Of a stretch of DNA of 64,000 bases, positions 1 through 13,147 are shown piece by piece (the stretch's first letter is position 1; the number at the start of each line of letters is the position of its first letter). The stretch spans positions 46,784 to 110,783 of the forward strand of contig JAQVIY010000001.1 of the NCBI GenBank assembly GCA_028695415.1, in the 5' to 3' direction. A model generated the notes under the pieces. That model was not told where the DNA came from, searched no databases, and saw only the letters and a list, made by a program, of their open reading frames with translations. The stretch is from Minisyncoccota bacterium (GTDB lineage Bacteria > Patescibacteriota > Minisyncoccia > Phycocordibacterales > Phycocordibacteraceae). Made by a program: the position numbers and the translations under genes.

Positions 1-1513
1 AGATTTTCTCCAAAGTAATCTTTTTTACTGCTCCTTGATATGCCTCAAGTTCGTCAATATTCAGAAAATATACTTTCAACTTCTTTATTCCTGGGCAGCC
101 ACCGACTTCCAGGAGATCTAACTCCGTTTCTATAATCTCCTTATAAAGATTGGAGGAGACCATAGGAACATCCAAGAAAACAATCACCGGGATCAATTTC
201 TTCCAGCGAAAAATCTTAAGCTCATCATGATCAGGAATGTCTTGTATGCGCTGATACATTTGCTTTATGCTCCCTACCATTTTGGCAACTTCCTTCTTAA
301 GAAGTTCTTTCTCTCCCGTTCGTTTAGCCAGTAATGGGAACTGATAGGCTTTTACCTCAAACAAATATACCTTCCATCGACCTGAACGCACCCAGAAATC
401 AATAAACTTAGCTTCGGCCTTTCCTTTCTTGTAATGAATCTCTCCGAAAACATTCTCTTCACCATAAATACCCTTCAGAATTAATCCGACGTAGCTTTCG
501 AAAACACTGCCAAAATAATCTCGAAAATCGCGATGAGTGCCTTTTGCAAAGAAATACTCATGGAACCACCAATATAGGCCTGCAAAGCCTTTCTTTAGAG
601 CGAATATAATATTAGGAACTACATACGGATCTTCGGAGGGAATATTCGTCTTTATAATTGGATAAATTTGAAGGGGGTTGAATCGAGTCTTGGTGTTCTC
701 AGGCAGTAGGCCTTCATTCATCCGTTTATCTTCTTCTTTGAAGAGGTTGTAATCGGCAGACAGCATATCGAGAAATTTCGATACCTTCTCATCAGTCAGG
801 ACTGATTTTAGAGAAGGAATCGCAGCCTGGGTTAAAGACTCTTTCCTAAAAGTTCCTGTCTTTTGTGCGCAAGCAAATACCGCCATAACCAAAAAGAAAT
901 ACTCAGAAATAGTTAAGCCGACTTCTCGTTCGAAGATTGTTGAGAGGTTCTCAAACTTAACAGGCTGAATTTCATTAATTATCTTGGTGAAAATAACAAT
1001 GTTCCTTGATATGGCTAGCGCTGGATTAAATTGAAGCTCAAGCTGCTCGCTATGCATTCGAACCATTAAGGATGGGAAATCTTTTCGATCAAAAGGCTTG
1101 GAGGGGTCTCTGATCAATTCAGGCATAACAAGGCTATTGCTGTATATATTGCAAAGGGTCAATATGTTTTGCCGATCAGTGATCTGCTTCTTGTATTTAT
1201 AGTCGTTGGCCCTTGAGACCAAGAGAATATTTGCAAGATACGCAAGTGCAAACTGCGTAATAAAAACTCCGTAGGTTGGATCTCTATAGCCTCCTTTCCC
1301 GATTTTGTCCGGACTTTTTGAGTTGAATATCGCACTAGAGACGCGGCCAAGAGCTACTAGACCATTACGGAGATCGTATTTTCCCAAAACCTCAAGAAGC
1401 TCTTCTTCAGAGACTCTCTTTTCATCACTACGAGCGAGATTGCTTATATCTGCATTAGCCCACAAGACCTTTGAAGATTGAGATGCCGTGTCGTGTATTT
1501 CGGGTGAGGGCAT
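1..1513 (-). CDS. Hypothetical protein, 5'-partial at the window edge (>=504 aa). AT-rich. C-terminal region carries a possible PD-(D/E)xK-like motif (IDFWV...LFEVKAY)
   Basis: Manual translation of the reverse strand from ATG at 1513 gives an uninterrupted frame to position 1. Absent from the ORF track because it runs off the edge. Confidence 0.5.
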   Translation of the reverse strand, partial: MPSPEIHDTASQSSKVLWANADISNLARSDEKRVSEEELLEVLGKYDLRNGLVALGRVSSAIFNSKSPDKIGKGGYRDPTYGVFITQFALAYLANILLVSRANDYKYKKQITDRQNILTLCNIYSNSLVMPELIRDPSKPFDRKDFPSLMVRMHSEQLELQFNPALAISRNIVIFTKIINEIQPVKFENLSTIFEREVGLTISEYFFLVMAVFACAQKTGTFRKESLTQAAIPSLKSVLTDEKVSKFLDMLSADYNLFKEEDKRMNEGLLPENTKTRFNPLQIYPIIKTNIPSEDPYVVPNIIFALKKGFAGLYWWFHEYFFAKGTHRDFRDYFGSVFESYVGLILKGIYGEENVFGEIHYKKGKAEAKFIDFWVRSGRWKVYLFEVKAYQFPLLAKRTGEKELLKKEVAKMVGSIKQMYQRIQDIPDHDELKIFRWKKLIPVIVFLDVPMVSSNLYKEIIETELDLLEVGGCPGIKKLKVYFLNIDELEAYQGAVKKITLEKI

Positions 1514-1563
1514 AGGTCCAAAAGTCTGGCAGCAGTTTTGTTATGATAATCGTAAATTAAGTT

Positions 1564-1872
1564 ATGAAAAGACCCTCCCCAAGGCAGATGCGATATGCGT
1601 ACGGTCTTATGAATTTCCATAGATCTAAGCGACAAGTTGCCCTGGATGCGGGGTTCGCGGAGAGCACCGCCAGAGTGCCGAAATTAATCGAAAACAAGGC
1701 TGGTTTTAAGCTCGCAATGGCTCAATTGGCCGGTGAGACAGAGAATGTGTCCATGAAGCTCATGTTTGAATTGCAGGCACGTGATCTGGGGGAGATGAGC
1801 AATGACGATCTCCTACATTCTCTTGAGGTAATGTCCCGCGTTCACGAGAGATTTACCTCTAAATCCATCTAA
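1564..1872 (+). CDS. Phage terminase small subunit-like HTH protein (Terminase_2-like N-terminus)
   Basis: N-terminus PSPRQMRYAYGLM...ALDAGFAESTARV..LIENKA matches the TerS pattern LTPKQ..F...Y....A..AGYS..TA. Confidence 0.4.
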   Translation: MKRPSPRQMRYAYGLMNFHRSKRQVALDAGFAESTARVPKLIENKAGFKLAMAQLAGETENVSMKLMFELQARDLGEMSNDDLLHSLEVMSRVHERFTSKSI

Positions 1873-2104
1873 GCTCAAAACGTGGTACAGTTTTTAGGTG
1901 CTCCCAGTTGAATAAGAAGACCTAACCCGCCAGCTGTGGCTGTCGGTATGGTCGAAAGTCCTTGGAAGATAGAAAACCCATCATGTGGGCCTGTCTTCCA
2001 AGGCCATAGCGGGAAACCGTTATGGGAGGCGCAAGCCTCCACCCACGTGGTGGGTTTTTTGTATACCTACCACCCCATTAATTCTTCAAAATTATCTTAC
2101 ATAT

Positions 2105-2308
2105 ATGGAGGCACAAAAACCTGTGAGTCGATTGAGTTGGGGGCAATACTTATTTGTTGGCGTGGCTATGCTAATCGTTGGTTTTTCGATAACTAATACT
2201 TACGCCGATACTTCCGTCATGTGGAACGTAGGGGCAGGAGTACAGCTCGTAGGATGGGGTTTCTTTATAACAGGCGTAGTGCGCGGGGTAAAAGGAAGAA
2301 CAAAATGA
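2105..2308 (+). CDS. Small 2-TM membrane protein
   Basis: Internal ATG of ORF 1985..2308; two hydrophobic helices. Confidence 0.3.
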   Translation: MEAQKPVSRLSWGQYLFVGVAMLIVGFSITNTYADTSVMWNVGAGVQLVGWGFFITGVVRGVKGRTK

Positions 2309-2796
2309 ATATAAATAAACATTCGTTGTTGGGAGTAGTGATGATAATACCCATCGCACTTATCGTCGCTCTGCACCCAATTCCAGCAAAAGCTTCACTA
2401 CTTTTTCCTGGTTTTAGCTTTCCTTGCCCGGCTGAGATTGGTTGTACAAAAGAACAAACACAGGCACGTGTGCAACTACAGAAACAAGCGGCATACGACG
2501 CGGGATGCCAGAGTTACATAGATAGTCATGGTGGTCACGGCACCTCTGTGTCTGCAAGCGACGGCAGCGAGTGCAAGACGACATGCAGCACCGGATACCA
2601 TCTGAATGCAGTAAACGCGTGCGCTCCAAACACAACAGTTGCTCCGGCTACTTCAAATCAATCGGTATCGCAGAGCGGAAAATATGCCTCCGGGCTTACG
2701 ACACAGCAGATAAATGCCATCGTCGTGCTACTGCAAGCGTTTGGGGCGAGTCAGACGGTCATTGTTCAAGTCGAGGCCGCTTTGCGAGGAAAATAG
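2305..2796 (+). CDS. Secreted Cys-rich hypothetical protein (signal peptide)
   Basis: MNINKHSLLGVVMIIPIALIVALHPIPAKA signal-like N-terminus; AT-rich island. Confidence 0.35.
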   Translation: MNINKHSLLGVVMIIPIALIVALHPIPAKASLLFPGFSFPCPAEIGCTKEQTQARVQLQKQAAYDAGCQSYIDSHGGHGTSVSASDGSECKTTCSTGYHLNAVNACAPNTTVAPATSNQSVSQSGKYASGLTTQQINAIVVLLQAFGASQTVIVQVEAALRGK

Positions 2797-2800
2797 GAAC

Positions 2801-3046
2801 ATGCTCTATTTTCTGCTAATTGTGATCGCTGTTGGTGTGCTTCTCATTTCTCCTGCTGGAAAAAAGATTCTGAAGTGGGCGGCAATAATCGCAGTTATAG
2901 CAGCGGCCCTAAGTGCTGCCGTATTAGGGATCATGTTGATTTCTGAAAAATACGGAGGAACTTGGGGCATACTCGCAGGACTTGCTTTGCTGGGGCTAGT
3001 GCTCAGGATGTTTGGGTTCGGACAGGATGATAAATCCACTGGTTAG
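2801..3046 (+). CDS. Small membrane protein (2-3 TM)
   Basis: MLYFLLIVIAVGVLLI... hydrophobic; internal ATG of ORF 2714..3046. Confidence 0.3.
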   Translation: MLYFLLIVIAVGVLLISPAGKKILKWAAIIAVIAAALSAAVLGIMLISEKYGGTWGILAGLALLGLVLRMFGFGQDDKSTG

Positions 3047-3359
3047 ATTTGCATACCAGAAACGGACACGGTAAACTGACTGGAGTTCATTGAATGTCTC
3101 CCTATCAAATATAGCGGTAATCCGCCACCCAATCTGACAGCCGTGCGACTCTTCGCATAACGAATATAACAGCCACGCGACTTTTCTCTTCGCGAAACTA
3201 TCAAACAAGCAGACAGTCTATGAACGCCTTATTCACAAGGTGTTTTCTTGTATTTATTGCGAGAAGCGCTGTTAGTAATGCTTGTTTCTTGCAGTAGCTC
3301 TGGGTGAAGCAAAATCCGCCACCTGGAGCTACTAGAGGGCACGCGGATAAAAAAATCAC

Positions 3360-5363
3360 ATGGCAAATCATGAGAATTCTCTCGTGGCCAAATTTGGGCA
3401 CGAAAAGCGATGGGTTAATTGGAAGTACGAAGAGCGAGACGGGAAAATTACCAAGGTGCCGTATGCGGTTAACGGCAAAAGGGCTTCTAGCGTTGACTCT
3501 TCCACGTGGAGCACTTATGCCGAAGTTTCCAGGATAAGTAGCAACGTAGGGATTATCTTCACCGAGGATCAACGCCTCCTTGGGATCGATATAGACCACG
3601 TTGTTGAAGATGGTGTGGTGAGCGACGATATTCAGCGCTTTATAGACGCTGCGGAAACATATACGGAAATCTCGCCCAGCGGCACAGGCCTGCACCTGTT
3701 CTTGGCGGTAACAGAGCCTCTCTCACTGACAAAGCACAAGAAAGCGCCCTACGAGCTGTATACCTCAAAACGGTTCTTCACGGTCACTAGGAACGAGTTC
3801 ACGGACTCGCCTGTGCGGACTGTTACGCCTGAAGAGGCTCTGAGGCTTCTCGCAATCATTGGTTATCCGTGGAACAAAGATGAGCCGGAAGCGCCAGCGG
3901 CGGTGCTTGGCGGCGGTGTCAGGCCACCTGCGTTGCCGCCCATGGCCGACGAGGAGCTTCTTGAGAAGATGTTTGCCTCGAAGAATGGGCACACGATAAG
4001 AGCTCTCTACCGAGGCGATATATCGAGCTACGAAAACGACGATTCTCGTGCTGACATGGCACTCTGCGCCCATCTCGCCTATTGGACGCACAATGACGGG
4101 GCTCAGATGGAACGTATATGGCTTGCCTCAGGGCTTGGACAAAGAGAAAAGACTCAGGGCCGGAAGGATTACCGTGAGCGAACGATTGCAGCCGCGATAG
4201 AGGGTAATGCCCAAGCGCGGTCTGAGAAGAACGTGCCTCAAAAGAGCCATGGGGCACAATCGGTTGGCGCGCAAGCGATAACCATCCGTATGTCGGATGT
4301 GCAGCCTAAGCCTATTGAATGGCTGTGGTTCGGACGTATAGCTCTCGGCAAGCTCACGATCATTGCCGGAGATCCGGGGCTCGGTAAGAGCCTTACTACT
4401 ATCGACATGGCGGCAAGGGTGTCGAAGGGCTGTGCATGGCCACTCGAAGGCTCTCTAGCGCCCCTGGGTAACGTGGTATTCCTCTCTGCTGAAGACGATC
4501 CGGGAGACACAATCAGGCCTCGTCTTGACGCTGCGGGTGCGGATTGTTCGCGCGTGCATGTAATTCAGGCGATCAGGGACGCGAATGAGGAAGGCAGACC
4601 GATGGAGCGAATGTTCTCGTTCAGAAAAGATATTACCGTCCTCGAAGATCTGTTGCGTACGCTCTCGGACTGCCGTCTTCTCGTGATTGACCCTGTGTCG
4701 GCATATTTGGATGGAACGAAAAGTCACGAGAACGCAGAGGTGCGACAAGTCCTGGCTCCGCTTGCTAAGCTGGCGGCGGATTTCGGTGTCGCGGTTGTCG
4801 TGGTGCAGCACCTCAACAAAAACAGCGGAGATAACGCCATGTACCGCTCAATGGGCTCTATCGGCTTTGTTGCTGCTGCCAGAGCCGCCTATATCGTTAC
4901 CAAGGACAAGGATAACCAGGAGCGTAGGCTGGTGATGCCGATCAAAAATAATCTCGCGAAAGATACGCTCGGTCTGGCCTACTCGGTCGTCGAGGCCTCA
5001 AACAGAGCTCCTATGCTCGTGTGGGAGTCTGAGGCAGTAACAATTACGGCCGACGAAGCATTGGGCCGCTCAGACTCCGATGAAGAAAAGACAAAAATTG
5101 AATGGGCGATACAGGTGCTGGAGGTTGTGCTCGCGGACGGCCCGGTTGCGGCGACAGAAGTTAATCGTGAAGCAAGACAGGCTGGCATATCCCAAAGCAC
5201 GCTGCACCGCGCGAAGGACAAGCTAGGCGTAAAACCGAAGAAAGCCAGTTTCAAGGATGGGTGGGTATGGTCGTTGCCCAACCGCGAAGGTGTTCAGATA
5301 AGCGAAGATGCCACACCTAAAGAGGTGGGTATCTTGGGGATGGATGAACACCTTGGTGAATAG
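3360..5363 (+). CDS. Fused DNA primase/polymerase (Prim-Pol N-terminus, PriCT-like middle) plus RecA-like/AAA_25 RepA-type helicase, C-terminal wHTH. Typical of phage/plasmid/satellite replicons
   Basis: DxD motif GIDIDH; P-loop GDPGLGKS; VVFLSAEDD; LVIDPVSAYL; VVVVQHLNK. Confidence 0.8.
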   Translation: MANHENSLVAKFGHEKRWVNWKYEERDGKITKVPYAVNGKRASSVDSSTWSTYAEVSRISSNVGIIFTEDQRLLGIDIDHVVEDGVVSDDIQRFIDAAETYTEISPSGTGLHLFLAVTEPLSLTKHKKAPYELYTSKRFFTVTRNEFTDSPVRTVTPEEALRLLAIIGYPWNKDEPEAPAAVLGGGVRPPALPPMADEELLEKMFASKNGHTIRALYRGDISSYENDDSRADMALCAHLAYWTHNDGAQMERIWLASGLGQREKTQGRKDYRERTIAAAIEGNAQARSEKNVPQKSHGAQSVGAQAITIRMSDVQPKPIEWLWFGRIALGKLTIIAGDPGLGKSLTTIDMAARVSKGCAWPLEGSLAPLGNVVFLSAEDDPGDTIRPRLDAAGADCSRVHVIQAIRDANEEGRPMERMFSFRKDITVLEDLLRTLSDCRLLVIDPVSAYLDGTKSHENAEVRQVLAPLAKLAADFGVAVVVVQHLNKNSGDNAMYRSMGSIGFVAAARAAYIVTKDKDNQERRLVMPIKNNLAKDTLGLAYSVVEASNRAPMLVWESEAVTITADEALGRSDSDEEKTKIEWAIQVLEVVLADGPVAATEVNREARQAGISQSTLHRAKDKLGVKPKKASFKDGWVWSLPNREGVQISEDATPKEVGILGMDEHLGE

Positions 5364-5374
5364 GAGGAATTCAC

Positions 5375-5560
5375 TTGGGCATGATCGATCTGGTCGAATT
5401 CAAGCAGTTACTGAGCCCCGAGGTGCGTGCTTTGCCTGAAAAGGAGATTGAGCGTATCCGTGAGCTTCAGTACGGCTTTGCTAACGCCATATTTGAGATG
5501 TGGCTTAGGGATCGTCACACCTCGTCCATCGAAGAAAATGAGAACAACACTAAAAGCTGA
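5375..5560 (+). CDS. Small hypothetical protein
   Basis: 61-aa ORF between primase and recombinase. Confidence 0.25.
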   Translation: MGMIDLVEFKQLLSPEVRALPEKEIERIRELQYGFANAIFEMWLRDRHTSSIEENENNTKS

Positions 5561-5703
5561 TATACTACGTAGGTACACAACTTCATACCGAGAGCTTTTT
5601 TATTGCCTGATTAAAATAATCGGGCACGGAAAGGGGCTAAGGTTGTTCAGCGTCTCTCGGGATGTTGTGTACACCAACCTTAGTCCCTTTTTGTATTCCA
5701 CTT

Positions 5704-7566
5704 ATGAAGTCTGCTGAAAAAATAAATGTCATCGGGCACTGCCGAGTGAGCTCTTCAAAACAAGCGCAAGAAGGCGAAAGCCTTAGCGTGCAAGAAGGAA
5801 TCGTTCGTGCGCACGCCGAGCGGAATAATTGGAACATGGTGAAGGTGTGGCACGAGAGCTACTCGGGCCGAAAAGAAACTCGGCCAGTATTTAACGAAAT
5901 TCTTACTTACCTCGATTCTCATCCGAGGCAGATTGAATACTATGTCTTTCGTACCATTGATCGCTTCACGCGCGGTGGTACGGGGATGTATGACCAAATG
6001 AGGAAGGAGCTCTTGAAGCGTGGTGTGGCAATGGTTGATACGAGCGGAATGATTCAGAAATCAAAAAATACTCTTGAGGATTTAGATTTTGAATATTCAT
6101 GGAGCCGTCATTCTCCGAGCGAGATCACGGAAGTTGTGGTAGCGACCACTTCAAAACAAGAAGTAACCAATATTGAGACTCGTATGATTGGGCAAGAGAT
6201 CCGATTAACGCAACAGGGGTACAAGGTTCGACACGCGCAAGACGGCTTCTTGAATACCAAGATTTACGATACCGACGGCAAGAAGCGCACGGTGATGATT
6301 GAGGACCCTATCCGCGCCAAGTATCTTCAGGCAATGTTCGAACTTCGTGCAGAAGGTCAGTTGAGTGATTCAGAGATCGTGAGTCGGGTAAATGCAATGG
6401 GATACCGCAGTCGAGCGCACAAGAAATGGGACAAGAGCCACACGAGAATCCTTGGCGCGGGCGGTGGAAAACTGCTTACGGTGAAGCATTTGCAGGAAAT
6501 CATCCAGCGCCCCATTTACGCAGGTTTAATTTGCGAGAAATGGACGAAGCATAAGCCGGTGAAGGCAAAGTTTGACGGCCTAGTGTCCGTGAACATTTTC
6601 AACAAGGCAAATAGAGGAAAGGTCTTCATAGAAGAAAAAGATGATGGGTCTTATGGAATTCTGTACGACCACTATCCCGATCGTGTCGTCGTGAAGAGAA
6701 TGCGAGACAACCCGCTATTCCCGTATAAGTCGGTGGTGATGTGCCCAGAATGCGGGAAGCCGTTCATGGGAAGTCGCTCACGAAGCAAGAGCGGCAATCC
6801 CGTGCCGTATTACCATTGTTCGCGCAAACACAAGTGGATTGGGTTCAATAAGTCTGCGTTTGAGAAGACAATCGAAGATTATGCGAACCGGCTTTATTTC
6901 TTGCCGGACGAGACAACGAGCATGAAGGCCTCGCTGAAGCACCTGTATAACGAGCGTAAGTCAGAAATCGCTCGTGAGACGGTATCTATGGAGGAAAATG
7001 TCGCTGAGCTAAAGATCCAAAAGAAAGAGGCTTTAGAGGCGTTTAAGGCAGCCACAAGTGAGGTAGTGCGCCGCGAGCTCGAAAGAGATATTGAGCAGCT
7101 TGAGACTCGCATCAACGGATCCGGCGCGGAGCACGCAAGTCTCAAGATTACGGAGTCAGATATCGATGCTTTCATGGAGTACGCAAAAGGCATAATGGAA
7201 CACCCAGCAAAAGCGCTATTGAATACAGTAAATGCGCGCCATCAGGAGTCTCTTTACTCTGTGGTATTCGACGAACTGCCATCTATTACGGAGATGGCTA
7301 ATGGAACACCTAAATTGTCTTGGATTTTCAGGCTTTCTGAGGAATCTCAGACACCTAAATCTGTGTTGGCGGGCCCACTAGGAATCGAACCTAGGCTGTC
7401 GGTTTTGGAGACCGATGTACTACCATTATACGATGGACCCTTCGCACTCACGTACGATACCAGACGCTGGGATGGTTTACCACGAGCGATTTATCCCAAA
7501 CGCAGTCGAGGGGAGTCGAGTGGGGAAAGCCGTCCCAGGCAGGGCGATGCGCGGTATGATAGAGAT
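5704..7566 (+). CDS. Large serine recombinase (resolvase N-domain, recombinase domain, zinc ribbon, coiled coil). No in-frame stop: the frame reads antisense through tRNA-Trp and into the next gene
   Basis: Catalytic motif INVIGHCRVSSSKQ; zinc ribbon CPECGKPF...YYHCSRKHKW. ORF track shows a continuous frame 5662..8466. Confidence 0.8.
7367..7440 (-). tRNA. tRNA-Trp (anticodon CCA), CCA encoded
   Basis: Minus strand GGGTCCA TC GTAT AATGGTA GTAC A TCGGT CTCCAAA ACCGA CAGC CTAGG TTCGATT CCTAG TGGGCCC G CCA. Cloverleaf folds, G73. Confidence 0.85.
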
Positions 7567-8466
7567 ATGCGTTCTCGCACTTCACTCTTCGCGCTTCTGC
7601 TTGTGGCGGGTTTGTTTATAGTACCCGCTATTGCCTCTGCACAAAGCGTACCGTTTTTCGGCCCCATCATCCCCCAGGAAGCTAATCAGGGGCTGTGCCC
7701 GGCGAGTTGGGGTATGGTCATCATCGTCATCAATCGGATTATCGCGTTCATGATCACGCTCGCTATTGTCTTCGTCGCGCCTTTAATGATTGCCTATTCC
7801 GGATTCCTCTTCGTCGTGAATCCTGTAAACGCGAGCGGGAAAGAGAAGGCGAAAGAAATTTTACGGAACACCGTTATCGGCATCGTCATTGCACTCTCGG
7901 GCTGGATGATCGTCGATGCGCTTATGGCGGTGCTCTATAACCCAGGCAATGCTGGCGGGACATGGATGACTATTATCAGGGGAAATACTGCCGATGTGTG
8001 CCTCCCGCAGAAAGGAGCGTTACCTAGCGGTACATTGAATCAAACCGGCACGGTAACGAATGTAGGAGTAAGTCCCGGCGCTGCTACGGGAAGATATACG
8101 TTTGATCCGGGCATAGCCGTACAGACGAAAGACGAATCAGGCCCGCTCTCGAGCTTGCTCTCCTGTATGGCGGGGAAATTACCGGCAGGTGTTGGTAGGA
8201 TTTCCTCGATTTCTGATAGCCTTATAACAAGCGGTCAGAAGACTTTTGCGCAGTGTGCAACGGGTGGCTGTCAGCATCAGGCAAACTCGTGTCATTATGG
8301 AGGCAAGACCTGCATTGGCAGCTCGTATGCCGTTGATTTCGGTGATGATGAAAACATCACAATACTCACGGCCGCTGCAAAGGCTTGCGGTGCTCAAACC
8401 CTCAATGAAGGGACGCATCTGCACGCGAGCGTCGGTGCCGTGAGCGGTTGCGGTTGCGGTCTCTAA
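7567..8466 (+). CDS. Secreted/membrane protein: Sec signal peptide, two TM helices, Cys/His-rich C-terminal domain
   Basis: MRSRTSLFALLLVAGLFIVPAIASA signal peptide. In frame with the upstream recombinase ORF. Confidence 0.5.
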   Translation: MRSRTSLFALLLVAGLFIVPAIASAQSVPFFGPIIPQEANQGLCPASWGMVIIVINRIIAFMITLAIVFVAPLMIAYSGFLFVVNPVNASGKEKAKEILRNTVIGIVIALSGWMIVDALMAVLYNPGNAGGTWMTIIRGNTADVCLPQKGALPSGTLNQTGTVTNVGVSPGAATGRYTFDPGIAVQTKDESGPLSSLLSCMAGKLPAGVGRISSISDSLITSGQKTFAQCATGGCQHQANSCHYGGKTCIGSSYAVDFGDDENITILTAAAKACGAQTLNEGTHLHASVGAVSGCGCGL

Positions 8467-8467
8467 A

Positions 8468-9322
8468 TTAGGACATAGGGTGTCCTAATTTGCGCAGCCA
8501 AGCTTTCTGGCGGCGGGCGTATTGCCAGAGCTTCGCCGAAAGTTTGGGTAACAGTTCAGCCTTCAGTCGCGCCGCGTCCTCCGTAGCTTTAGCGGAGGAG
8601 GACAGATATTCACCGACAATCTTGTATTCGAGCCCGAGCTCGTCAAGACGTGCGTCGCTGGTTTCTTCTCGTACCCGGCGCACTTCGTCAATAAGCCCGC
8701 GCTCAAAGGCGTTTGCGAGACGCGTATCTATTTTCTTTCGTAATTCTTCTCTTGGCGGGTCAATTACTATCCATTCCACCTCATATTTCCCGAGGTTCGA
8801 CCTCGGGGGAACTGCTCCTTGTGCAATGATGATTTCGAGTGCCCGGATGAGCCTCCGTCTGTTCTTCGGGTCAAGTTCGGCGGCGCGGCGGGGATCACGT
8901 TCCTCAATCTGTGCATACAGTTCCTCGTTCGTACATTTCTCCAACTCTTCGCGCAGCGCGGGGTTCGCGTCAGTATTTGCGGGGAGTCCGTGCAGGAGCG
9001 CATCAAAGTAGAAATGAGTGCCGCCAACGAGTATCGGCAGCTTACCTCGTGCGGTTATCTCGTCGATAAGGTGCGTTGCGTCTTGTACAAAGTCTCCTGC
9101 AGAATAATTCTCATTCGCATCGCGAATGTCTATAAGGTGATGGGGCACGCCGCACATCTCCTCAGCCGTGATCTTCTCCGTGCCGATATCGAGCCCGCGA
9201 TACACCTGGCGAGAGTCGACGGAGATAATCTCGCCGTCGCGAGCAAGCGCCTCTTCGATCGCCCGGGAGGATTTACCCGAGGCGGTCGGGCCTATGATGC
9301 ATAGAATGTGGGTACCGGTCAT
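8468..9322 (-). CDS. miaA: tRNA dimethylallyltransferase
   Basis: GPTASGKS P-loop; VDSRQVYRGLDIGTEK. Confidence 0.9.
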   Translation of the reverse strand: MTGTHILCIIGPTASGKSSRAIEEALARDGEIISVDSRQVYRGLDIGTEKITAEEMCGVPHHLIDIRDANENYSAGDFVQDATHLIDEITARGKLPILVGGTHFYFDALLHGLPANTDANPALREELEKCTNEELYAQIEERDPRRAAELDPKNRRRLIRALEIIIAQGAVPPRSNLGKYEVEWIVIDPPREELRKKIDTRLANAFERGLIDEVRRVREETSDARLDELGLEYKIVGEYLSSSAKATEDAARLKAELLPKLSAKLWQYARRQKAWLRKLGHPMS

Positions 9323-9479
9323 GCTAAGGACTATACGTCCTATGCCCAGTAGGACAAAATGGCATCGTGCTCCCGCGATACATTTTTATTGCCCTCGGAA
9401 CCCTTTGTGTGTAAAATTGCTGCATGAGAATCATTATCCACTGGCACAGGAAAGCTATGCCATTTAGTCCTCACTGGGT

Positions 9480-10139
9480 ATGAAAGAGACCAAGAGCAAC
9501 TATTGCGAGTATTGCGGCGAGTTCCACGACTTCGTCCACGACCATACGTCGCTCGTGAAGGTGGGCGAGTCAGTGCCGGACTTCGAGTTTGAGGCCTACC
9601 ACAACGACAAGACAGTAACGATGAGTCTCTCGCGCCTGCGCGGTAAGTGGGTCGTACTTGTCTTTTATCCCGCCGACTTCACCTTCATCTGTCCGACTGA
9701 GCTCGAAGAGCTTGCGGCGCTGTACCCGAACTTTCAGAAGCTCGGTGCCGAGATAATCTCGATCTCGACCGACACGGTCTTCACGCATAAGGCGTGGCGC
9801 GACGTCTCGCCGAATATCAAGAAGATAGGATACCCGATGGCGGCCGACCCGTCGGGCAAGATGGCAGACGCGTTCGGTGTACTCATTGAAGGCAATGGGC
9901 CGGAGCTCACGCCAGACGAGGGGCTCGCGCTTCGCGGCACCTTTATCATCGACCCAACCGGCACACTCCGTTCAATGGAGATCAATGATAACTCTATAGG
10001 ACGCAAGGGAGCTGAGACGCTGCGCAAGCTCCAGGCGGCGCAATTTGTGGATACCCATAAAGGTGTGGTGTGCCCGGCCTCGTGGGAGCCGGGAGACGAT
10101 ACGCTCGAGCCAGGCATGGACCTCGTCGGGAAGCTGTAG
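9480..10139 (+). CDS. Peroxiredoxin (AhpC/TSA 2-Cys family) with short Cys/His-rich N-terminal extension
   Basis: FTFICPTE peroxidatic Cys motif; resolving Cys VCPA near C-terminus. Confidence 0.8.
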   Translation: MKETKSNYCEYCGEFHDFVHDHTSLVKVGESVPDFEFEAYHNDKTVTMSLSRLRGKWVVLVFYPADFTFICPTELEELAALYPNFQKLGAEIISISTDTVFTHKAWRDVSPNIKKIGYPMAADPSGKMADAFGVLIEGNGPELTPDEGLALRGTFIIDPTGTLRSMEINDNSIGRKGAETLRKLQAAQFVDTHKGVVCPASWEPGDDTLEPGMDLVGKL

Positions 10140-10386
10140 GCCCTGCTTCGCCAAGGCTACGCAGGGCTACTTCGCTGTGTGTGCACTTCGTAGCTCCATT
10201 TCTGAATGGAGCGAAGTAGTGCCGGGAGAGGCTTGGTCACGCTTTACTAATTCGCTTCGCTCATAAGTATGCGCGACCCCGCCTCGCGACGCTCGGGGAC
10301 TCGCGTATCGCTCCGGCTTTCAAGTCTCTCACGCACGGTGCGCAGGCACCGTGCTTCCCGGCACAGCTTTCGCTTCGCTCAATCTG

Positions 10387-10467
10387 TGCCGGGAGAGAGA
10401 CTTGAACTCTCATGTCTTTCGACGAGGGGTTTTGAATCCCTTGCGTATACCATTTCGCCATCCCGGC
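10387..10467 (-). tRNA. tRNA-Leu (anticodon CAA), type II with long variable arm
   Basis: Minus strand GCCGGGA TG GCG AAATGGTATA CGC A AGGGA TTCAAAA CCCCT CGTCGAAAGACAT GAGAG TTCAAGT CTCTC TCCCGGC A. Confidence 0.75.
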
Positions 10468-10500
10468 AGCGCCCTTCGAAGCTTTACGCGAAGTAGGGCA

Positions 10501-11523
10501 ATGAATTCTAGAGTACCATATGCTAAAATTGTTTTACATATGAATGATGACGCGGCGTATATCCCGACAAAATATGATTCGATCTTCTGGATTGATGTCG
10601 ATCGTATCATCCCGAATCCGTACCAGCCGCGCAAGGTCTTTACCGAAGAGGGGTTGAAGTCGCTCGCAGACAGCATCCGCCAGTACGGCGTGCTCCAGCC
10701 GCTCGTGGTCTCGCGCACCGAAGTCGAGAAGCCGGACGGCGGGCTCGAAAGCCTCTATGAGCTCGTCGCGGGTGAGCGGCGCTTGCGCGCGAGCAGGCTC
10801 GCGGGATTGAAACAAGTGCCGGTCGTTATCCGTCAGGGCGACAACAATCTCACCAAGCTCGAGCTCGCCATCATCGAGAACCTCCAGCGCGAAGACCTGA
10901 ACGCGGTTGACCGCGCGAAGGCGCTCCAGCGGCTCATCGATGAGTTCGGCATCTCACACGCCGAGACTGCCGCGAAGATAGGCAAGAGCCGCGAATATGT
11001 CTCGAACTCTATCCGCCTCCTCTCGCTCCCTGAATATATTCAGGAGGCCATTATCTCGAAAGAAATAAACGAGGGGCACGCCCGCCCCTTGCTCACGCTC
11101 AACAGCCGCCCCGAAGAGCGCGACACGCTCTTCAAGGAGATAACGCTCAAGAAGCTCTCCGTGCGCGCCGCCGAGCGCATCGCGCGCTCCATCGCGCAGG
11201 AGCGCGTGCGTTCGCGTCATCGCAAGTCGCCTGAAATGGTTGAGATAGAGAAATCGCTTACCGAAAGTCTCGGCACGCGCGTCATTATTGAGACGAATGC
11301 CGAGGGCGGCCGTCTCCTTATTGATTTCTTTTCTCCAGACGATCTTCAGCAGCTGGTTGACGCTCTCGCCGCAGAACAACAGGCAGTCGAGATGGCGCCA
11401 AAGGAGGAGGATGCGTATCCGCTATTTCCCAATACCACCCAAGTGTCCGATGATCCGATCGCGCCCGCGGCGCCCGAAGAGACCGAAGACGAGCTCTACT
11501 CGGTCTCCAATTTCAGCGTGTAG
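10501..11523 (+). CDS. parB: Chromosome partitioning protein ParB/Spo0J
   Basis: ParB N-domain GERRLRA with HTH. Start placed after tRNA-Leu; the track ORF start at 10351 overlaps the tRNA. Confidence 0.8.
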   Translation: MNSRVPYAKIVLHMNDDAAYIPTKYDSIFWIDVDRIIPNPYQPRKVFTEEGLKSLADSIRQYGVLQPLVVSRTEVEKPDGGLESLYELVAGERRLRASRLAGLKQVPVVIRQGDNNLTKLELAIIENLQREDLNAVDRAKALQRLIDEFGISHAETAAKIGKSREYVSNSIRLLSLPEYIQEAIISKEINEGHARPLLTLNSRPEERDTLFKEITLKKLSVRAAERIARSIAQERVRSRHRKSPEMVEIEKSLTESLGTRVIIETNAEGGRLLIDFFSPDDLQQLVDALAAEQQAVEMAPKEEDAYPLFPNTTQVSDDPIAPAAPEETEDELYSVSNFSV

Positions 11524-13132
11524 CTTTCTTCTTTGTCGCTCGATGTGCGCGCCGGACGCGCCCGGGCTTTGATGGTTCGGTCATGCCGAGCGCGCTGCGG
11601 ATATTTCGGCGCGCGAGCGAGGTGCGTACGAACTCAAGCCACTTCGCCGAAGGTTTGGCGGAGTCGCGACGTTGTATCTCCACGATGTCTCCGTTGCCGA
11701 GCTTGGTCTCGAAGGAGACCAGCTTGCCATTGACTTTGGCACCCTGAGCGTGATCGCCGAGATCGCTGTGTATCGCATAAGCGAAGTCTATCGGCGTTGA
11801 ATCTGCAGGGAGATCGATAACGTCGCCCTCCGGAGTAAAGACGAATACGCGGTGTGAGAAGAAATCCTCCTTGAGCCCTTCGACGAATTCTTCAGAACCC
11901 ATGATGTCAGTATGCGCCTCGGCGAGTTCGGCGAGCCAGGGGGGGACGACGTGGTTCGTATCACTCCCCTCGGTCTCTTTTTTCGATATCTTCATAAGCG
12001 AGGGAACGAGCGAGCGCACCCACGAGAACGAGAGCGATGAGAAACGGCTTTTTTGTTCGGCCTTCTCCAGTTTAGAGACATCCTTACCCAATTGCTTGTA
12101 GGTCATATGTGAGGCGATACCGAACTGCGCGCTCCGGTGCATCTCTTCGGTGCGAATCTGTATTTCGACAATACCTGCCTCGGGGGTGACGACGGTCGTG
12201 TGGAGCGACTGATAACCGTTCGGCTTCGGAAAGGCGATGTAATCTTTGAACTCGCCCGGCAACGGGCGATAGAGCGCGTGTACGATACCGAGCGTCGTAT
12301 AGCAGTCCTCAACCGACGGCACGACGAACCGCAGTGCAGCGATATCGTGAATGAGGTTGATGTCGTCATTTTTCCGCTTCAGTTTCTGATGCAGACTCCA
12401 GAGCCCTTTCATGCGGATATCAGAGCTGAATTTTGACAACCCTTTCTTCGCGAGCTCTTTCTTGATCTCTTTTTGCACCTTCAAGAGCCCGTCTTCGGTC
12501 TCGCGCGTTTTCAATTTGCGTACCTCGGCAGCATGCGTCGCGGCGTCAGGGTCGACGAAAGGGAAGGCAAGATCTTCGAGGGTACTCTTCATCTTACCCA
12601 TGCCGAGACGATCGGCGATCGGAGCATAGATTTCTAGAGTCTCGAGCGCGATGCGCCGGCGCTTGTGCTCAGGCACGTGTTCCAAGGTTTGCATATTATG
12701 CTTGCGGTCGGCGAGCTTCACGATGAGCACGCGGATATCGCTCGCCGTCGCGACGAGGAGCCGGCGGAGCGACTCGGCATGACGCTCTGCGCCGCGATAC
12801 TTATGCGTACCGAGCTTCGTCACGCCGTCGATGATGAAAAGAAGTTCTTTCCCGAATTCTTTTTCTATTTCTTCGCGTGATGCCTTGCCGTCTTCAACGA
12901 CATCGTGCAGGAGTCCGGCGGCGATGGTGGTAGCGTCCATTCCGTATTCGGCAAGCGTCTTTGCGGTCGCGGCGGGGTGGACGAAGTAGGGTTCGCCCGA
13001 GAAACGAGATTGACCCTCGTGCGCCTTCTTAGAGAGTTCATAGGCTTTCTCAACGAAGGCGATATCGGTAGGCGAGGCACCCCGCATCAGAGCCGTAATC
13101 TCCTTGAGCGTCGTCATCGTCATTGCCGACAC
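11513..13132 (-). CDS. rel: Bifunctional (p)ppGpp synthetase/hydrolase (RelA/SpoT family)
   Basis: HD domain HDVVED; RelA_SpoT synthetase region; TGS-like C-terminus. Confidence 0.85.
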   Translation of the reverse strand: MSAMTMTTLKEITALMRGASPTDIAFVEKAYELSKKAHEGQSRFSGEPYFVHPAATAKTLAEYGMDATTIAAGLLHDVVEDGKASREEIEKEFGKELLFIIDGVTKLGTHKYRGAERHAESLRRLLVATASDIRVLIVKLADRKHNMQTLEHVPEHKRRRIALETLEIYAPIADRLGMGKMKSTLEDLAFPFVDPDAATHAAEVRKLKTRETEDGLLKVQKEIKKELAKKGLSKFSSDIRMKGLWSLHQKLKRKNDDINLIHDIAALRFVVPSVEDCYTTLGIVHALYRPLPGEFKDYIAFPKPNGYQSLHTTVVTPEAGIVEIQIRTEEMHRSAQFGIASHMTYKQLGKDVSKLEKAEQKSRFSSLSFSWVRSLVPSLMKISKKETEGSDTNHVVPPWLAELAEAHTDIMGSEEFVEGLKEDFFSHRVFVFTPEGDVIDLPADSTPIDFAYAIHSDLGDHAQGAKVNGKLVSFETKLGNGDIVEIQRRDSAKPSAKWLEFVRTSLARRNIRSALGMTEPSKPGRVRRAHRATKKKATR

Positions 13133-13147
13133 TATACACCGGCAAAT

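What the first reader, a model, noticed from the sequence alone, without database searches (positions are those of the whole stretch)
5704..8466. Serine recombinase ORF has no stop codon: it reads antisense through tRNA-Trp and in-frame into a signal-peptide protein
Frame 5662..8466 is open for 934 codons. The recombinase domains end near 7300, then the frame crosses the entire antisense tRNA-Trp (7367..7440) and continues into a gene that starts with a textbook Sec signal peptide (MRSRTSLFALLLVAGLFIVPAIASA at 7567). Either the recombinase C-terminus is encoded by att/tRNA sequence, as seen when crossover sites lie inside int genes, and merely reads through until 8466, or a stop was lost. A genuine 934-aa fusion would be bizarre.
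Basis: seen in the sequence. Interest (0 to 1): 0.55.

Follow-up and report, generated by a model that had tools for sequence, protein, structure and literature searches.

The report
Recombinase gene split by its own attachment site
The 934-codon frame is the scar of a 10-kb mobile element that inserted at the end of a tRNA-Trp gene using a serine recombinase whose crossover site lies inside its own gene, so the gene lost its natural end and stop codon and now reads by accident into the neighbouring host gene.

Summary
Frame 5662..8466 is open for 934 codons. It crosses tRNA-Trp (7367..7440, minus strand) in antisense and enters a signal-peptide gene in frame.

It is not a fusion gene, and I found no sign of a sequencing error. 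The large serine recombinase (LSR, 5704..7374) belongs to a large family whose attP lies inside the 3' end of the recombinase gene. Integration at the 3' end of a tRNA gene cuts off a conserved 29-40 aa C-terminal helix (WNxIExxIxxW) and joins the ORF to antisense tRNA.

- The missing tail and its stop codon sit at the other end of the element, 2.7 kb before the window start. Rejoining the two ends gives a 586-aa protein, within the homologs' range.
- Five other loci also have both ends. A close relative with the intact tail sits on a circular 15,965-bp episome.
- Antisense tRNA-Glu or tRNA-Lys supplies a stop after 8-20 codons. Antisense tRNA-Trp supplies none. Here the 126-nt spacer also has no stop, and the pilin-like host gene happens to be in frame.

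The closest precedents are DsiB of Dehalococcoides ssrA islands, Mx8 IntP/IntX and SSV1. A widespread tRNA-targeting LSR family is poorly documented, so interest is moderate.

The parts
1..7374 (+). Right-hand 7.4 kb of a ~10.07-kb integrative element. Its left end (attL) lies about 2.7 kb before the window start, at L001 3937-3942.
   Evidence: GC is 39-50% over 1..3500 against 52-60% in host DNA. attL with the native-tail remnant was found on Logan contig L001, where window position = L001 position - 6641.
3360..5363 (+). Primase-polymerase/helicase (667 aa), the replication gene of the element.
   Evidence: Pfam AAA_25 1.6e-33 and NrS1-1_pol-like_HBD 5e-14. PHROG DNA primase 2.4e-61.
5375..5560 (+). 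Small ORF (61 aa) directly upstream of the recombinase. Its position and sequence are conserved across the family. Candidate accessory factor (RDF or regulator).
   Evidence: Alignment A4 with the equivalent ORFs of L030, L032, L035 and L036 shows invariant L, R, A, A, W, L, R columns. No Pfam or PHROG hit.
5704..7374 (+). Large serine recombinase, element-encoded part (557 codons). It holds the catalytic, recombinase and zinc-ribbon/coiled-coil domains and a linker ending in ..KSVLAG.
   Evidence: Pfam hits. 884 homologs of 560-610 aa. Invariant RVS, C-x2-C and HC columns. The AF2 model of homolog P0016 matches full-length serine integrase-att complexes 9dxf/9y66/9dxh at E~1e-15.
7340..7400 (.). 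attR: P arm (recombinase codons ..ESQTPKSVL), crossover core GCGGGC (7369..7374) and B' arm (antisense acceptor and T arm of tRNA-Trp, containing GGAATCGAAC).
   Evidence: Comparison of attL and attR and reconstruction of attP and attB. The reconstructed attP closely resembles the real attP of episome L031. Family-wide 5-bp shift of the distal motif.
7367..7440 (-). tRNA-Trp(CCA), intact. Its last bases, the encoded CCA and its 3' trailer are now supplied by the element.
   Evidence: ARAGORN. The core covers the last four acceptor-stem bases, the discriminator G and the next base.
7375..7566 (+). Accidental read-through: antisense tRNA-Trp plus the 126-nt host spacer, with no stop in the recombinase frame.
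   Evidence: Stop map by frame and shuffle test, P=0.16. L003 has a TAG where the window has TAC.
7567..8466 (+). Independent host gene: a 299-aa secreted/membrane T4SS-pilin-like protein with its own ATG and signal peptide.
   Evidence: P0121 is 100% identical over 299 aa and is annotated separately at NCBI. 668 homologs, mostly 290-340 aa at ~99% coverage, many with PF18895. The ortholog in L003 starts at the same MRSRTSLF.

Best explanation
A ~10-kb integrative, self-replicating element (primase-helicase, small ORFs, large serine recombinase) is inserted at the extreme 3' end of the host's tRNA-Trp gene. The element's attP lies inside the 3' end of its own recombinase gene, in a disordered linker just before a conserved C-terminal helix. 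Recombination with attB has its crossover at the discriminator and last acceptor-stem bases of the tRNA. It splits the gene in two. The first 557 codons stay next to the regenerated tRNA (attR). The last 29 codons and the stop codon end up ~10 kb away at attL. In the integrated state the ORF therefore continues into antisense tRNA. Antisense tRNA-Trp has no stop in that frame, the 126-nt host spacer has none either, and the next host gene (a pilin-like protein) is in the same frame, so the ORF runs to 8466. Shown: both junctions, the displaced tail, the same architecture in five further loci with both ends, and a circular episome carrying the intact gene. Inferred: that the right arm of each site is read by the zinc-ribbon domain (ATCGAAC of the T loop in attB, ATGGAAC = Trp-Asn codons in attP, 5 bp further out); that the element can still excise; and that any 920-aa product would be a by-product without function.
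For: 1. Homologs are 560-610 aa. Of the 120 best, 57 carry a native tail L-x-x-L-x-x-x-WNxIExxIxxW and about 58 carry antisense-tRNA-like tails that begin at the same codon.
2. In 14 of 28 genome loci a minus-strand tRNA (Trp, Glu or Lys) starts 7-9 nt into the 8-codon window used to line up the junction, that is, within 1-3 nt of the conserved Leu codon.
3. The native-tail remnant YAG|LRSLGWNTLEATILRWKGIFGVHGAILVA* lies at L001 3937-4032 on the same strand (tblastn E 1.7e-7). attL and attR share GCGGGC, and the rejoined ORF is 586 aa.
4. Five more loci (L005, L009, L014, L016, L018) have a tail remnant 4.8-7.5 kb upstream. Their attL/attR identity blocks are 3-9 bp and overlap at the discriminator and last two acceptor bases.
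5. Native-tail homolog P0016 sits on a circular 15,965-bp episome. One contig is perfectly periodic and a contig from another sample has an 18-nt terminal overlap. Its attP, TTGGCGGGC-ctac..agcctggaatggaac, matches the reconstructed attP of the window.
6. The proximal 12 nt of the right arms align best at shift 0 (0.50). The distal nt 14-27 align best at shift +5 (0.49, against 0.14-0.36 at other shifts). This is the attP/attB zinc-ribbon-motif offset described by Rutherford et al. 2013 (PMC3783163).
7. W568, N569 and W578 are invariant in 41 native-tail homologs. In the AF2 model the tail helix has pLDDT ~90 and follows a linker with pLDDT <50.
8. The downstream gene is a stand-alone 299-aa gene. 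Syntenic L003 has a stop between the two ORFs.
9. The window and a second assembly are identical.
Against: The left end of the element is outside the window and was read from another assembly of what appears to be the same genome. The element interior contains XseA/XseB-like genes, which are usually chromosomal, so a composite or older structure cannot be excluded. Many native-tail homologs lie on long chromosomal contigs with no tRNA within 10 kb, which the simple 'native tail = episome' rule does not explain. No excised circle or empty site of this particular element was observed. Recombinase activity, the exact crossover dinucleotide and the protein-DNA contacts are not tested.
Confidence: 0.9

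Rival explanations
1. Sequencing or assembly error: a frameshift or lost stop between about 7300 and 7566 artificially joins two genes.
For: Metagenome-assembled sequence. In the syntenic relative L003 a TAG closes the frame 15 nt past the tRNA, where the window has TAC.
Against: The window is identical to a second assembly over 15,363 nt. The recombinase stays collinear with homologs, in one frame, up to the junction codon. The tRNA is intact. The natural stop was found where the model predicts, at attL. All tRNA-Trp-associated relatives also read through the whole tRNA.
Confidence: 0.03
2. A genuine, selected 920/934-aa fusion protein: recombinase joined to a secreted pilin-like domain.
For: The frame is open and one gene caller predicted a 920-aa product.
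Against: Homologs of the recombinase end at many different places a few codons past the junction. The pilin-like gene is a separate 299-aa gene in hundreds of genomes and at NCBI for this very sequence. A signal peptide 620 residues into a cytoplasmic DNA enzyme cannot work as such (established knowledge of Sec targeting). The linker is antisense tRNA plus spacer and is not conserved. The L003 ortholog has a stop.
Confidence: 0.02
3. A decayed, immobile remnant: the recombinase is a pseudogene truncated by an old integration and the element can no longer move.
For: The natural C-terminal helix is missing from the gene. No circular form or empty site of this element was seen. The element interior includes housekeeping-like XseAB genes.
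Against: All 557 codons are intact with every family-invariant residue. The 29-codon tail remnant at attL is still an open frame with W, N, E and W conserved and its own stop. Both att cores are identical. About half of the family is found in exactly this state, which indicates it is the normal integrated state rather than decay.
Confidence: 0.05

Closest known systems
DsiB, the ssrA-specific large serine recombinase of Dehalococcoides genomic islands (McMurdie et al. 2011, PMC3146451)
   Same: A large serine recombinase at the edge of an integrative element. The 3' end of its gene always overlaps the att site and runs antisense into a small-RNA gene, and its stop codon lies outside the island. 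The authors already proposed that the gene may be complete only on the circular form. That module also contains a ~700-aa primase-like protein.
   Different: DsiB targets tmRNA (ssrA), not tRNAs. It is paired with a second small serine recombinase, DsiA, and no second resolvase-domain gene is present here. No conserved native tail or episomal form was shown for DsiB. The sequence relationship to DsiB was not tested because no DsiB sequence was available to me.
Mx8 IntP/IntX and SSV1-type integrases (tyrosine recombinases whose genes extend across attP; cited in Hudson et al. 2015, PMC4383910)
   Same: attP lies inside the integrase gene and the target is a tRNA gene. Integration changes the C-terminus (Mx8) or splits the gene (SSV1).
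   Different: These are tyrosine recombinases, which use long identity segments and a different chemistry. Here the enzyme is a serine recombinase, the attL/attR identity is only 3-9 bp, and only a terminal helix is exchanged.
Canonical phage large serine integrases (A118/LI, Bxb1, phiC31, SPbeta; Rutherford et al. 2013, PMC3783163)
   Same: The same domain order and fold. Short att sites, with the distal (zinc-ribbon) motif 5 bp further from the centre in attP than in attB.
   Different: Their attP sites are intergenic and their targets are protein-coding or intergenic DNA. Hudson 2015 states that only tyrosine integrases were known to target tDNAs. Mageeney 2020 (PMC7192596) found 14 of 297 predicted cases and called them unreported.
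Integration-dependent immunity of mycobacteriophages (Broussard et al. 2013; recalled from memory, not checked here)
   Same: attP lies inside the 3' end of a phage gene and integration into a tRNA gene swaps that protein's C-terminus, which makes the protein report the integrated state.
   Different: There the split gene is the repressor and the integrase is a tyrosine recombinase. A regulatory role for the tail swap is only a hypothesis here.

Membership tests
Large serine recombinase (serine integrase) | N-terminal resolvase-type catalytic domain with the nucleophile serine motif | tested here: met
   PF00239 E=4.5e-11, 43.5 bits against cut-off 23.3. HCRVSSSKQ motif with R14/V15 in at least 90% of sequences and S16 invariant. 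Profile hit to the TP901-1 integrase catalytic domain, 9.4e-10.
Large serine recombinase (serine integrase) | Recombinase domain followed by a zinc-ribbon domain with an inserted coiled coil | tested here: met
   PF07508 at 25.7 bits (cut-off 21.1). PF13408 at 23.4 bits, just below its cut-off of 25.3. Invariant C347, C350, H371, C372. The AF2 model has long helices at 402-474. Foldseek matches full-length integrase-att complexes at E~1e-15 over ~570 columns.
Large serine recombinase (serine integrase) | Short att sites with minimal attP/attB identity around a central dinucleotide | tested here: met
   attL/attR identity blocks of 3-9 bp in six loci, sharing a common 3-nt position. No long direct repeat in the window.
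Large serine recombinase (serine integrase) | Distal (ZD) motif about 5 bp further from the centre in attP than in attB | tested here: met
   Over 17 B' arms and 10 P' arms, distal identity peaks at shift +5 (0.49) and proximal identity at shift 0 (0.50). The reference model is in PMC3783163. Only right arms were tested.
Large serine recombinase (serine integrase) | Catalyses attP x attB recombination; excision needs an RDF | not testable with these tools
The conserved 61-aa ORF upstream is only a candidate accessory factor.
Integrases whose gene spans attP (Mx8 IntP / SSV1 type) | att core lies inside the integrase ORF, so integration alters or splits the protein | tested here: met
   The core GCGGGC lies at codons 556-557 of a 586-codon gene, with the tail remnant at attL. 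Five more loci show the same.
Integrases whose gene spans attP (Mx8 IntP / SSV1 type) | Tyrosine recombinase catalytic fold | tested here: not met
   No Phage_integrase hit; the domains are Resolvase and Recombinase. It works like these integrases but is not a member.
DsiB-type ssrA island integration module | 3' end of the LSR gene overlaps att and runs antisense into the target RNA gene | tested here: met
   against the description in PMC3146451.
DsiB-type ssrA island integration module | Target is ssrA (tmRNA) | tested here: not met
   The targets are tRNA-Trp here and tRNA-Glu, tRNA-Lys or tRNA-Trp in relatives. ARAGORN found no tmRNA.
DsiB-type ssrA island integration module | Adjacent second small serine recombinase (DsiA) | tested here: not met
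   No second Resolvase-domain gene among the called genes of the element.
DsiB-type ssrA island integration module | Sequence orthology to DsiB | not tested

The most novel reading that the evidence does not exclude
The tail exchange is a built-in state switch. The conserved C-terminal helix (WNxIExxIxxW) would be present only on the episomal enzyme and lost on integration, so the episomal and integrated recombinases would differ in activity, stability or directionality. In addition, the Trp-Asn codons of that helix would double as the zinc-ribbon binding motif of attP, mimicking the tRNA T loop. That mimicry would let this family move between different tRNA targets.
Probability: 0.3. Interest if true: 0.7.

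Novelty: new variant of a known kind. Interest (0 to 1): 0.45.

Why it matters
For annotation: ORFs of this family that run into tRNA genes are not errors, pseudogenes or fusions. They mark attR exactly, and the displaced tail marks attL, so element boundaries can be read to the base.

For biology: serine integrases were long said not to use tRNA genes (PMC4383910, PMC7192596). This is a family of at least about 200 clusters at 50% identity. It is spread over Patescibacteria, Proteobacteria, Verrucomicrobiota and others, and it targets the 3' ends of tRNA-Trp, tRNA-Glu and tRNA-Lys. Both episomal and integrated forms are visible.

For engineering: the family provides many natural attP/attB pairs whose attB arm is the near-universal T-loop and acceptor sequence. 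It also offers a natural test of whether a C-terminal helix modulates directionality.

The 934-codon ORF itself is an accident of no known consequence.

Tried and rejected
- A repeat search in window 1..12000 found no att-type direct repeat. This fits a serine recombinase and an attL that lies outside the window.
- tblastn of native tails against the window found nothing beyond the recombinase itself, because the remnant is 2.7 kb before the window start. It was found only after fetching the Logan contig.
- The promoter/terminator scan of 7200..7700 was uninformative: no promoter-like site, and one terminator-like hairpin inside the signal-peptide codons.
- A PDB sequence search with the single protein gave no hit. 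The profile hit only catalytic domains. The fold search was needed for the full-length match.
- An IMG/VR scan for the attP pattern gave no hit.
- The metagenome scan for the reconstructed attB junction returned six unoccupied tRNA-Trp genes with similar A/T-rich trailers. L043 has partly syntenic neighbours. None is the true empty site of this strain.
- I looked for tandem arrays to explain native-tail copies on long chromosomal contigs. No tRNA or second LSR lies within 10 kb, so this is unresolved.
- My first two regular expressions for the native tail were out of register. The corrected count is 57 of 120.
Full report
**1. The observation**

The window has one ORF from 5662 to 8466 on the + strand, 934 codons. 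ARAGORN places tRNA-Trp(CCA) at 7367..7440 on the minus strand, inside that frame. The first third of the protein carries the Resolvase, Recombinase and zinc-ribbon domains of a large serine recombinase, LSR. From 7567 the frame reads MRSRTSLFALLLVAGLFIVPAIASA. The real start of the recombinase is probably ATG 5704: homologs align from there, and the gene caller on another assembly called 920 aa from it. A Logan contig (L001; window position = L001 position - 6641) is identical to the window over 15,363 nt.

**2. Where homologs end**

A protein search returned 884 relatives, and the best 120 are 480-690 aa, mostly 560-610. Their C-termini fall into two classes that diverge at the same codon, the Leu of ..S-x-L-[AV]-[GRT]. 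Fifty-seven continue with a conserved tail, L-x-x-L-x-x-x-W-N-x-I-E-x-x-I-x-x-W-K. About 58 continue with peptides such as PxGIEPxxSVLETDVLPL or RPRGLEPRTVSLRGSCSTN, which are translations of antisense tRNA. In the window the codons TTG GCG GGC CCA (L A G P, from 7366) are the reverse complement of the tRNA-Trp 3' end, TGGGCC-CGC-CAA.

**3. Family-wide check on DNA**

Of 28 loci from species-representative genomes, 14 have a minus-strand tRNA at the end of the recombinase gene. They are tRNA-Trp (2 loci), tRNA-Glu UUC or CUC (9) and tRNA-Lys (3). The tRNA 3' end lies 7-9 nt into the 8-codon window used to line up the junction, that is, within 1-3 nt of the conserved Leu codon.

- Two more loci are cut by the contig end.
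- Two more have tRNA-like sequence that ARAGORN does not call.
- Six have the native tail and no tRNA.

In the tRNA state the ORF ends 8-12 codons into tRNA-Glu, 20 codons into tRNA-Lys, and beyond the tRNA for tRNA-Trp. Antisense tRNA-Trp has no stop in that frame, and L003 and L017 stop 15 nt past it. Where the ORF ends is therefore set by the host sequence, not by the recombinase gene.

**4. The missing end of the gene**

tblastn with native tails found nothing in the window. On L001 it found one place, 3916..4011 on the same strand (E down to 1.7e-7, hit by every query). That sequence reads tat GCGGGC tta cga agc ctg gga tgg aac ..., which translates to Y A G L R S L G W N T L E A T I L R W K G I F G V H G A I L V A stop.

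attL (..ccttattttat GCGGGC ttacgaagcc..) and attR (..atctgtgttg GCGGGC ccactaggaatcgaacc.., window 7369..7374) share a 6-bp core. Joining the left half of attR to the right half of attL gives a 586-aa recombinase with the family tail. Joining the other halves gives a tRNA-Trp followed by an A/T-rich trailer.

The element therefore spans L001 ~3943..14015, about 10.07 kb, and its left end lies 2.7 kb before the window start. Host genes (ClpB, an LMWPc/HIT protein) lie to its left. A scan of metagenome contigs for the reconstructed attB junction found six unoccupied tRNA-Trp genes with similar trailers. One of them (L043) has ClpB, MiaA, tRNA-Leu and ParB nearby, as in the window, but none is the exact empty site.

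**5. Replication in other loci, and the episomal form**

Five other tRNA-state loci carry a native-tail remnant upstream on the same strand: L005 (Lys, element ~6.9 kb), L009 (Glu, 5.1 kb), L014 (Lys, 7.5 kb), L016 (Glu, 7.0 kb) and L018 (Glu, 4.8 kb). Their attL/attR identity blocks are only 3-9 bp. All blocks overlap at three positions, which on the tRNA strand are the discriminator base and the last two acceptor-stem bases. The tRNA body stays host-encoded, and the element replaces only the 3' trailer. In the window it also supplies an encoded CCA.

The native-tail homolog P0016 (59% identical) lies on a JGI contig that is perfectly periodic, with period 15,965 bp and 100% identity over 5,811 nt. 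It also lies on a 15,983-bp Logan contig from another sample with an 18-nt terminal overlap. This is a circular episome carrying ParA, a primase and zinc-uptake genes. Its attP region, cctgtc TTGGCGGGC ctactcagcctggaatggaacacc, closely matches the attP reconstructed for the window, ctgtg TTGGCGGGC ttacgaagcctgggatggaacact.

**6. Anatomy of the sites**

I anchored the right arms of 17 tRNA-state (B') and 10 native-state (P') sequences on the junction codon. The first 12 nt are most alike at shift 0 (mean identity 0.50). Nucleotides 14-27 are most alike at shift +5 (0.49, against 0.14-0.36 at other shifts). In the window, GGAATCGAAC (antisense T loop) sits 7-16 nt after the core in attB, and GGGATGGAAC (codons G-W-N) sits 12-21 nt after it in attP.

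This is the arrangement shown for serine integrases by Rutherford et al. 2013, in which the zinc-ribbon motif is 5 bp closer to the centre in attB than in attP (PMC3783163). I infer that the invariant Trp-Asn codons of the tail double as the distal attP motif. I also infer that the near-universal T-loop sequence explains how relatives use different tRNAs. The left arms of attP and attB in this locus share AGACACCT, 12 and 11 nt from the core respectively. I did not test left arms across the family.

**7. The protein**

W568, N569 and W578 are invariant and E572 is nearly invariant in 41 native-tail homologs that are 44-79% identical to P0016. W578 lies about 55 nt from the crossover, beyond a normal half-site, so part of this conservation acts on the protein.

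An AlphaFold model of P0016 (mean pLDDT 81.9) has a low-confidence linker at 548-558, where the junction falls. It then has a confident helix at 568-582. The model matches full-length serine integrase-att complexes (9dxf, 9y66, 9dxh; E~1e-15). All catalytic and DNA-binding domains lie before the junction, so the integrated form may well be active, but this is not known.

**8. Why the frame runs on here**

The recombinase frame has no stop in antisense tRNA-Trp or in the 126-nt spacer 7441..7566. A stop-free spacer has probability 0.16 by shuffling, and ATG 7567 is in the same frame.

The downstream gene is independent. P0121 is 100% identical over exactly 299 aa and is annotated on its own at NCBI (Candidatus Pacebacteria MAG). 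There are 668 homologs, mostly 290-340 aa at ~99% coverage, many with the T4SS pilin domain PF18895.

In the syntenic relative L003 an element of the same family sits at tRNA-Trp, and the two ORFs are also in the same frame, but a TAG separates them. The window has TAC at that place, plus an extra ~80 nt of spacer. The 934-codon ORF is therefore a by-product.

**9. Rivals**

- An assembly error is unlikely, given the identical second assembly, the collinearity with homologs and the recovery of the natural stop at attL.
- A selected fusion is contradicted by the variable ends of homologs and by the independent downstream gene.
- A dead remnant is possible but not favoured, because the gene, both cores and the 29-codon remnant are all intact.

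**10. Comparison with what is known**

McMurdie et al. [quoted passage not shown] Its stop lies only outside the island, and the authors suggested it may be complete only on the circle (PMC3146451). That is the closest precedent. It differs in target (tmRNA), in having a partner recombinase DsiA, and in lacking a demonstrated native tail.

Mx8 and SSV integrases extend across attP but are tyrosine recombinases (PMC4383910). Hudson et al. 2015 state that only tyrosine integrases were known to target tDNAs. Mageeney et al. 2020 found 14 of 297 serine-integrase islands at t(m)RNA genes and called this previously unreported and in need of proof. Twenty-seven of 937 Prochlorococcus elements (tycheposons and related cryptic elements) use a large serine recombinase.

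I found no paper describing this family, its conserved tail or its tRNA 3'-end sites, but the library is incomplete. A 77-aa query from the family-specific C-terminal module finds 194 cluster representatives at E<=1e-3.

**11. Open points**

- Native-tail copies also occur on long chromosomal contigs with island-like neighbours and no tRNA within 10 kb. Tandem arrays or a second integration system could explain this, but I could not test either.
- The element interior carries XseA/XseB-like genes.
- Whether the tail swap changes activity is unknown.

**12. Verdict**

The long ORF is an accident, and what lies beneath it is a new variant of a known kind.

Noticed in passing
L001 4136-6308 (off window, inside the element, before window position 1): The element carries a GIY-YIG protein and XseA/XseB-like exonuclease VII genes (Pfam 1.8e-57 for XseA). 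These are usually chromosomal housekeeping genes. They could be cargo or a sign of a composite structure.
   Followed up: partly
window 5375..5560 (+): A 61-aa ORF directly upstream of the recombinase. Its position and sequence are conserved in distant family members (LLG..LS..E..IR....ADA.F..WLR.R). It has no Pfam or PHROG hit and is a candidate directionality factor or regulator.
   Followed up: partly
L030 1-21776 and L031 1-15983: A 15,965-bp circular episome seen in two samples. It carries ParA, a Toprim primase, FUR, ZnuA and ABC zinc-uptake genes, and a native-tail recombinase. It looks like a plasmid-like element of Patescibacteria with metal-uptake cargo.
   Followed up: partly
L021 7627-7704 and 10814-10886: Here the recombinase runs into a degenerate tRNA-like remnant that ARAGORN does not call, and an intact tRNA-Trp lies 3.1 kb further on. 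This may be the trace of successive insertions or of decay.
   Followed up: no
L034/L035 10001-11785; L036 10001-11758: Native-tail recombinases lie on 0.2-1.2 Mb chromosomal contigs (Rhizomicrobium and others). Their neighbours are ParB, TrwB-like, HTH and Ros/MucR genes and a tyrosine-integrase fragment, with no tRNA within 10 kb. The simple episome/integrated rule does not explain these copies.
   Followed up: partly
L017 (DATJQC010000013.1): A 5.5-kb contig binned as a Nanoarchaeia archaeon carries the same recombinase fused to a tRNA-Trp. This could be a mis-binned Patescibacteria contig or a family member in DPANN archaea.
   Followed up: no
window 1..1513 (-) = L001 6349-8154: A 601-aa protein at 40% GC, the lowest GC in the element, has no Pfam or PHROG hit.
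   Followed up: no
window 7545..7566: The sequence GGTATGATAG just upstream of ATG 7567 is conserved with L003. It contains a TATGAT box about 7 nt before the start codon, which suggests a promoter close to the start and a very short or absent leader for the pilin-like gene.
   Followed up: no
window 7366..7374 versus reconstructed attB: After integration the tRNA-Trp is followed by an element-encoded CCA (GCCCGC-CAA). The reconstructed pre-integration gene has GCCCGC-ATAAAA, without an encoded CCA. In L003 the element supplies CTAA instead.
   Followed up: partly
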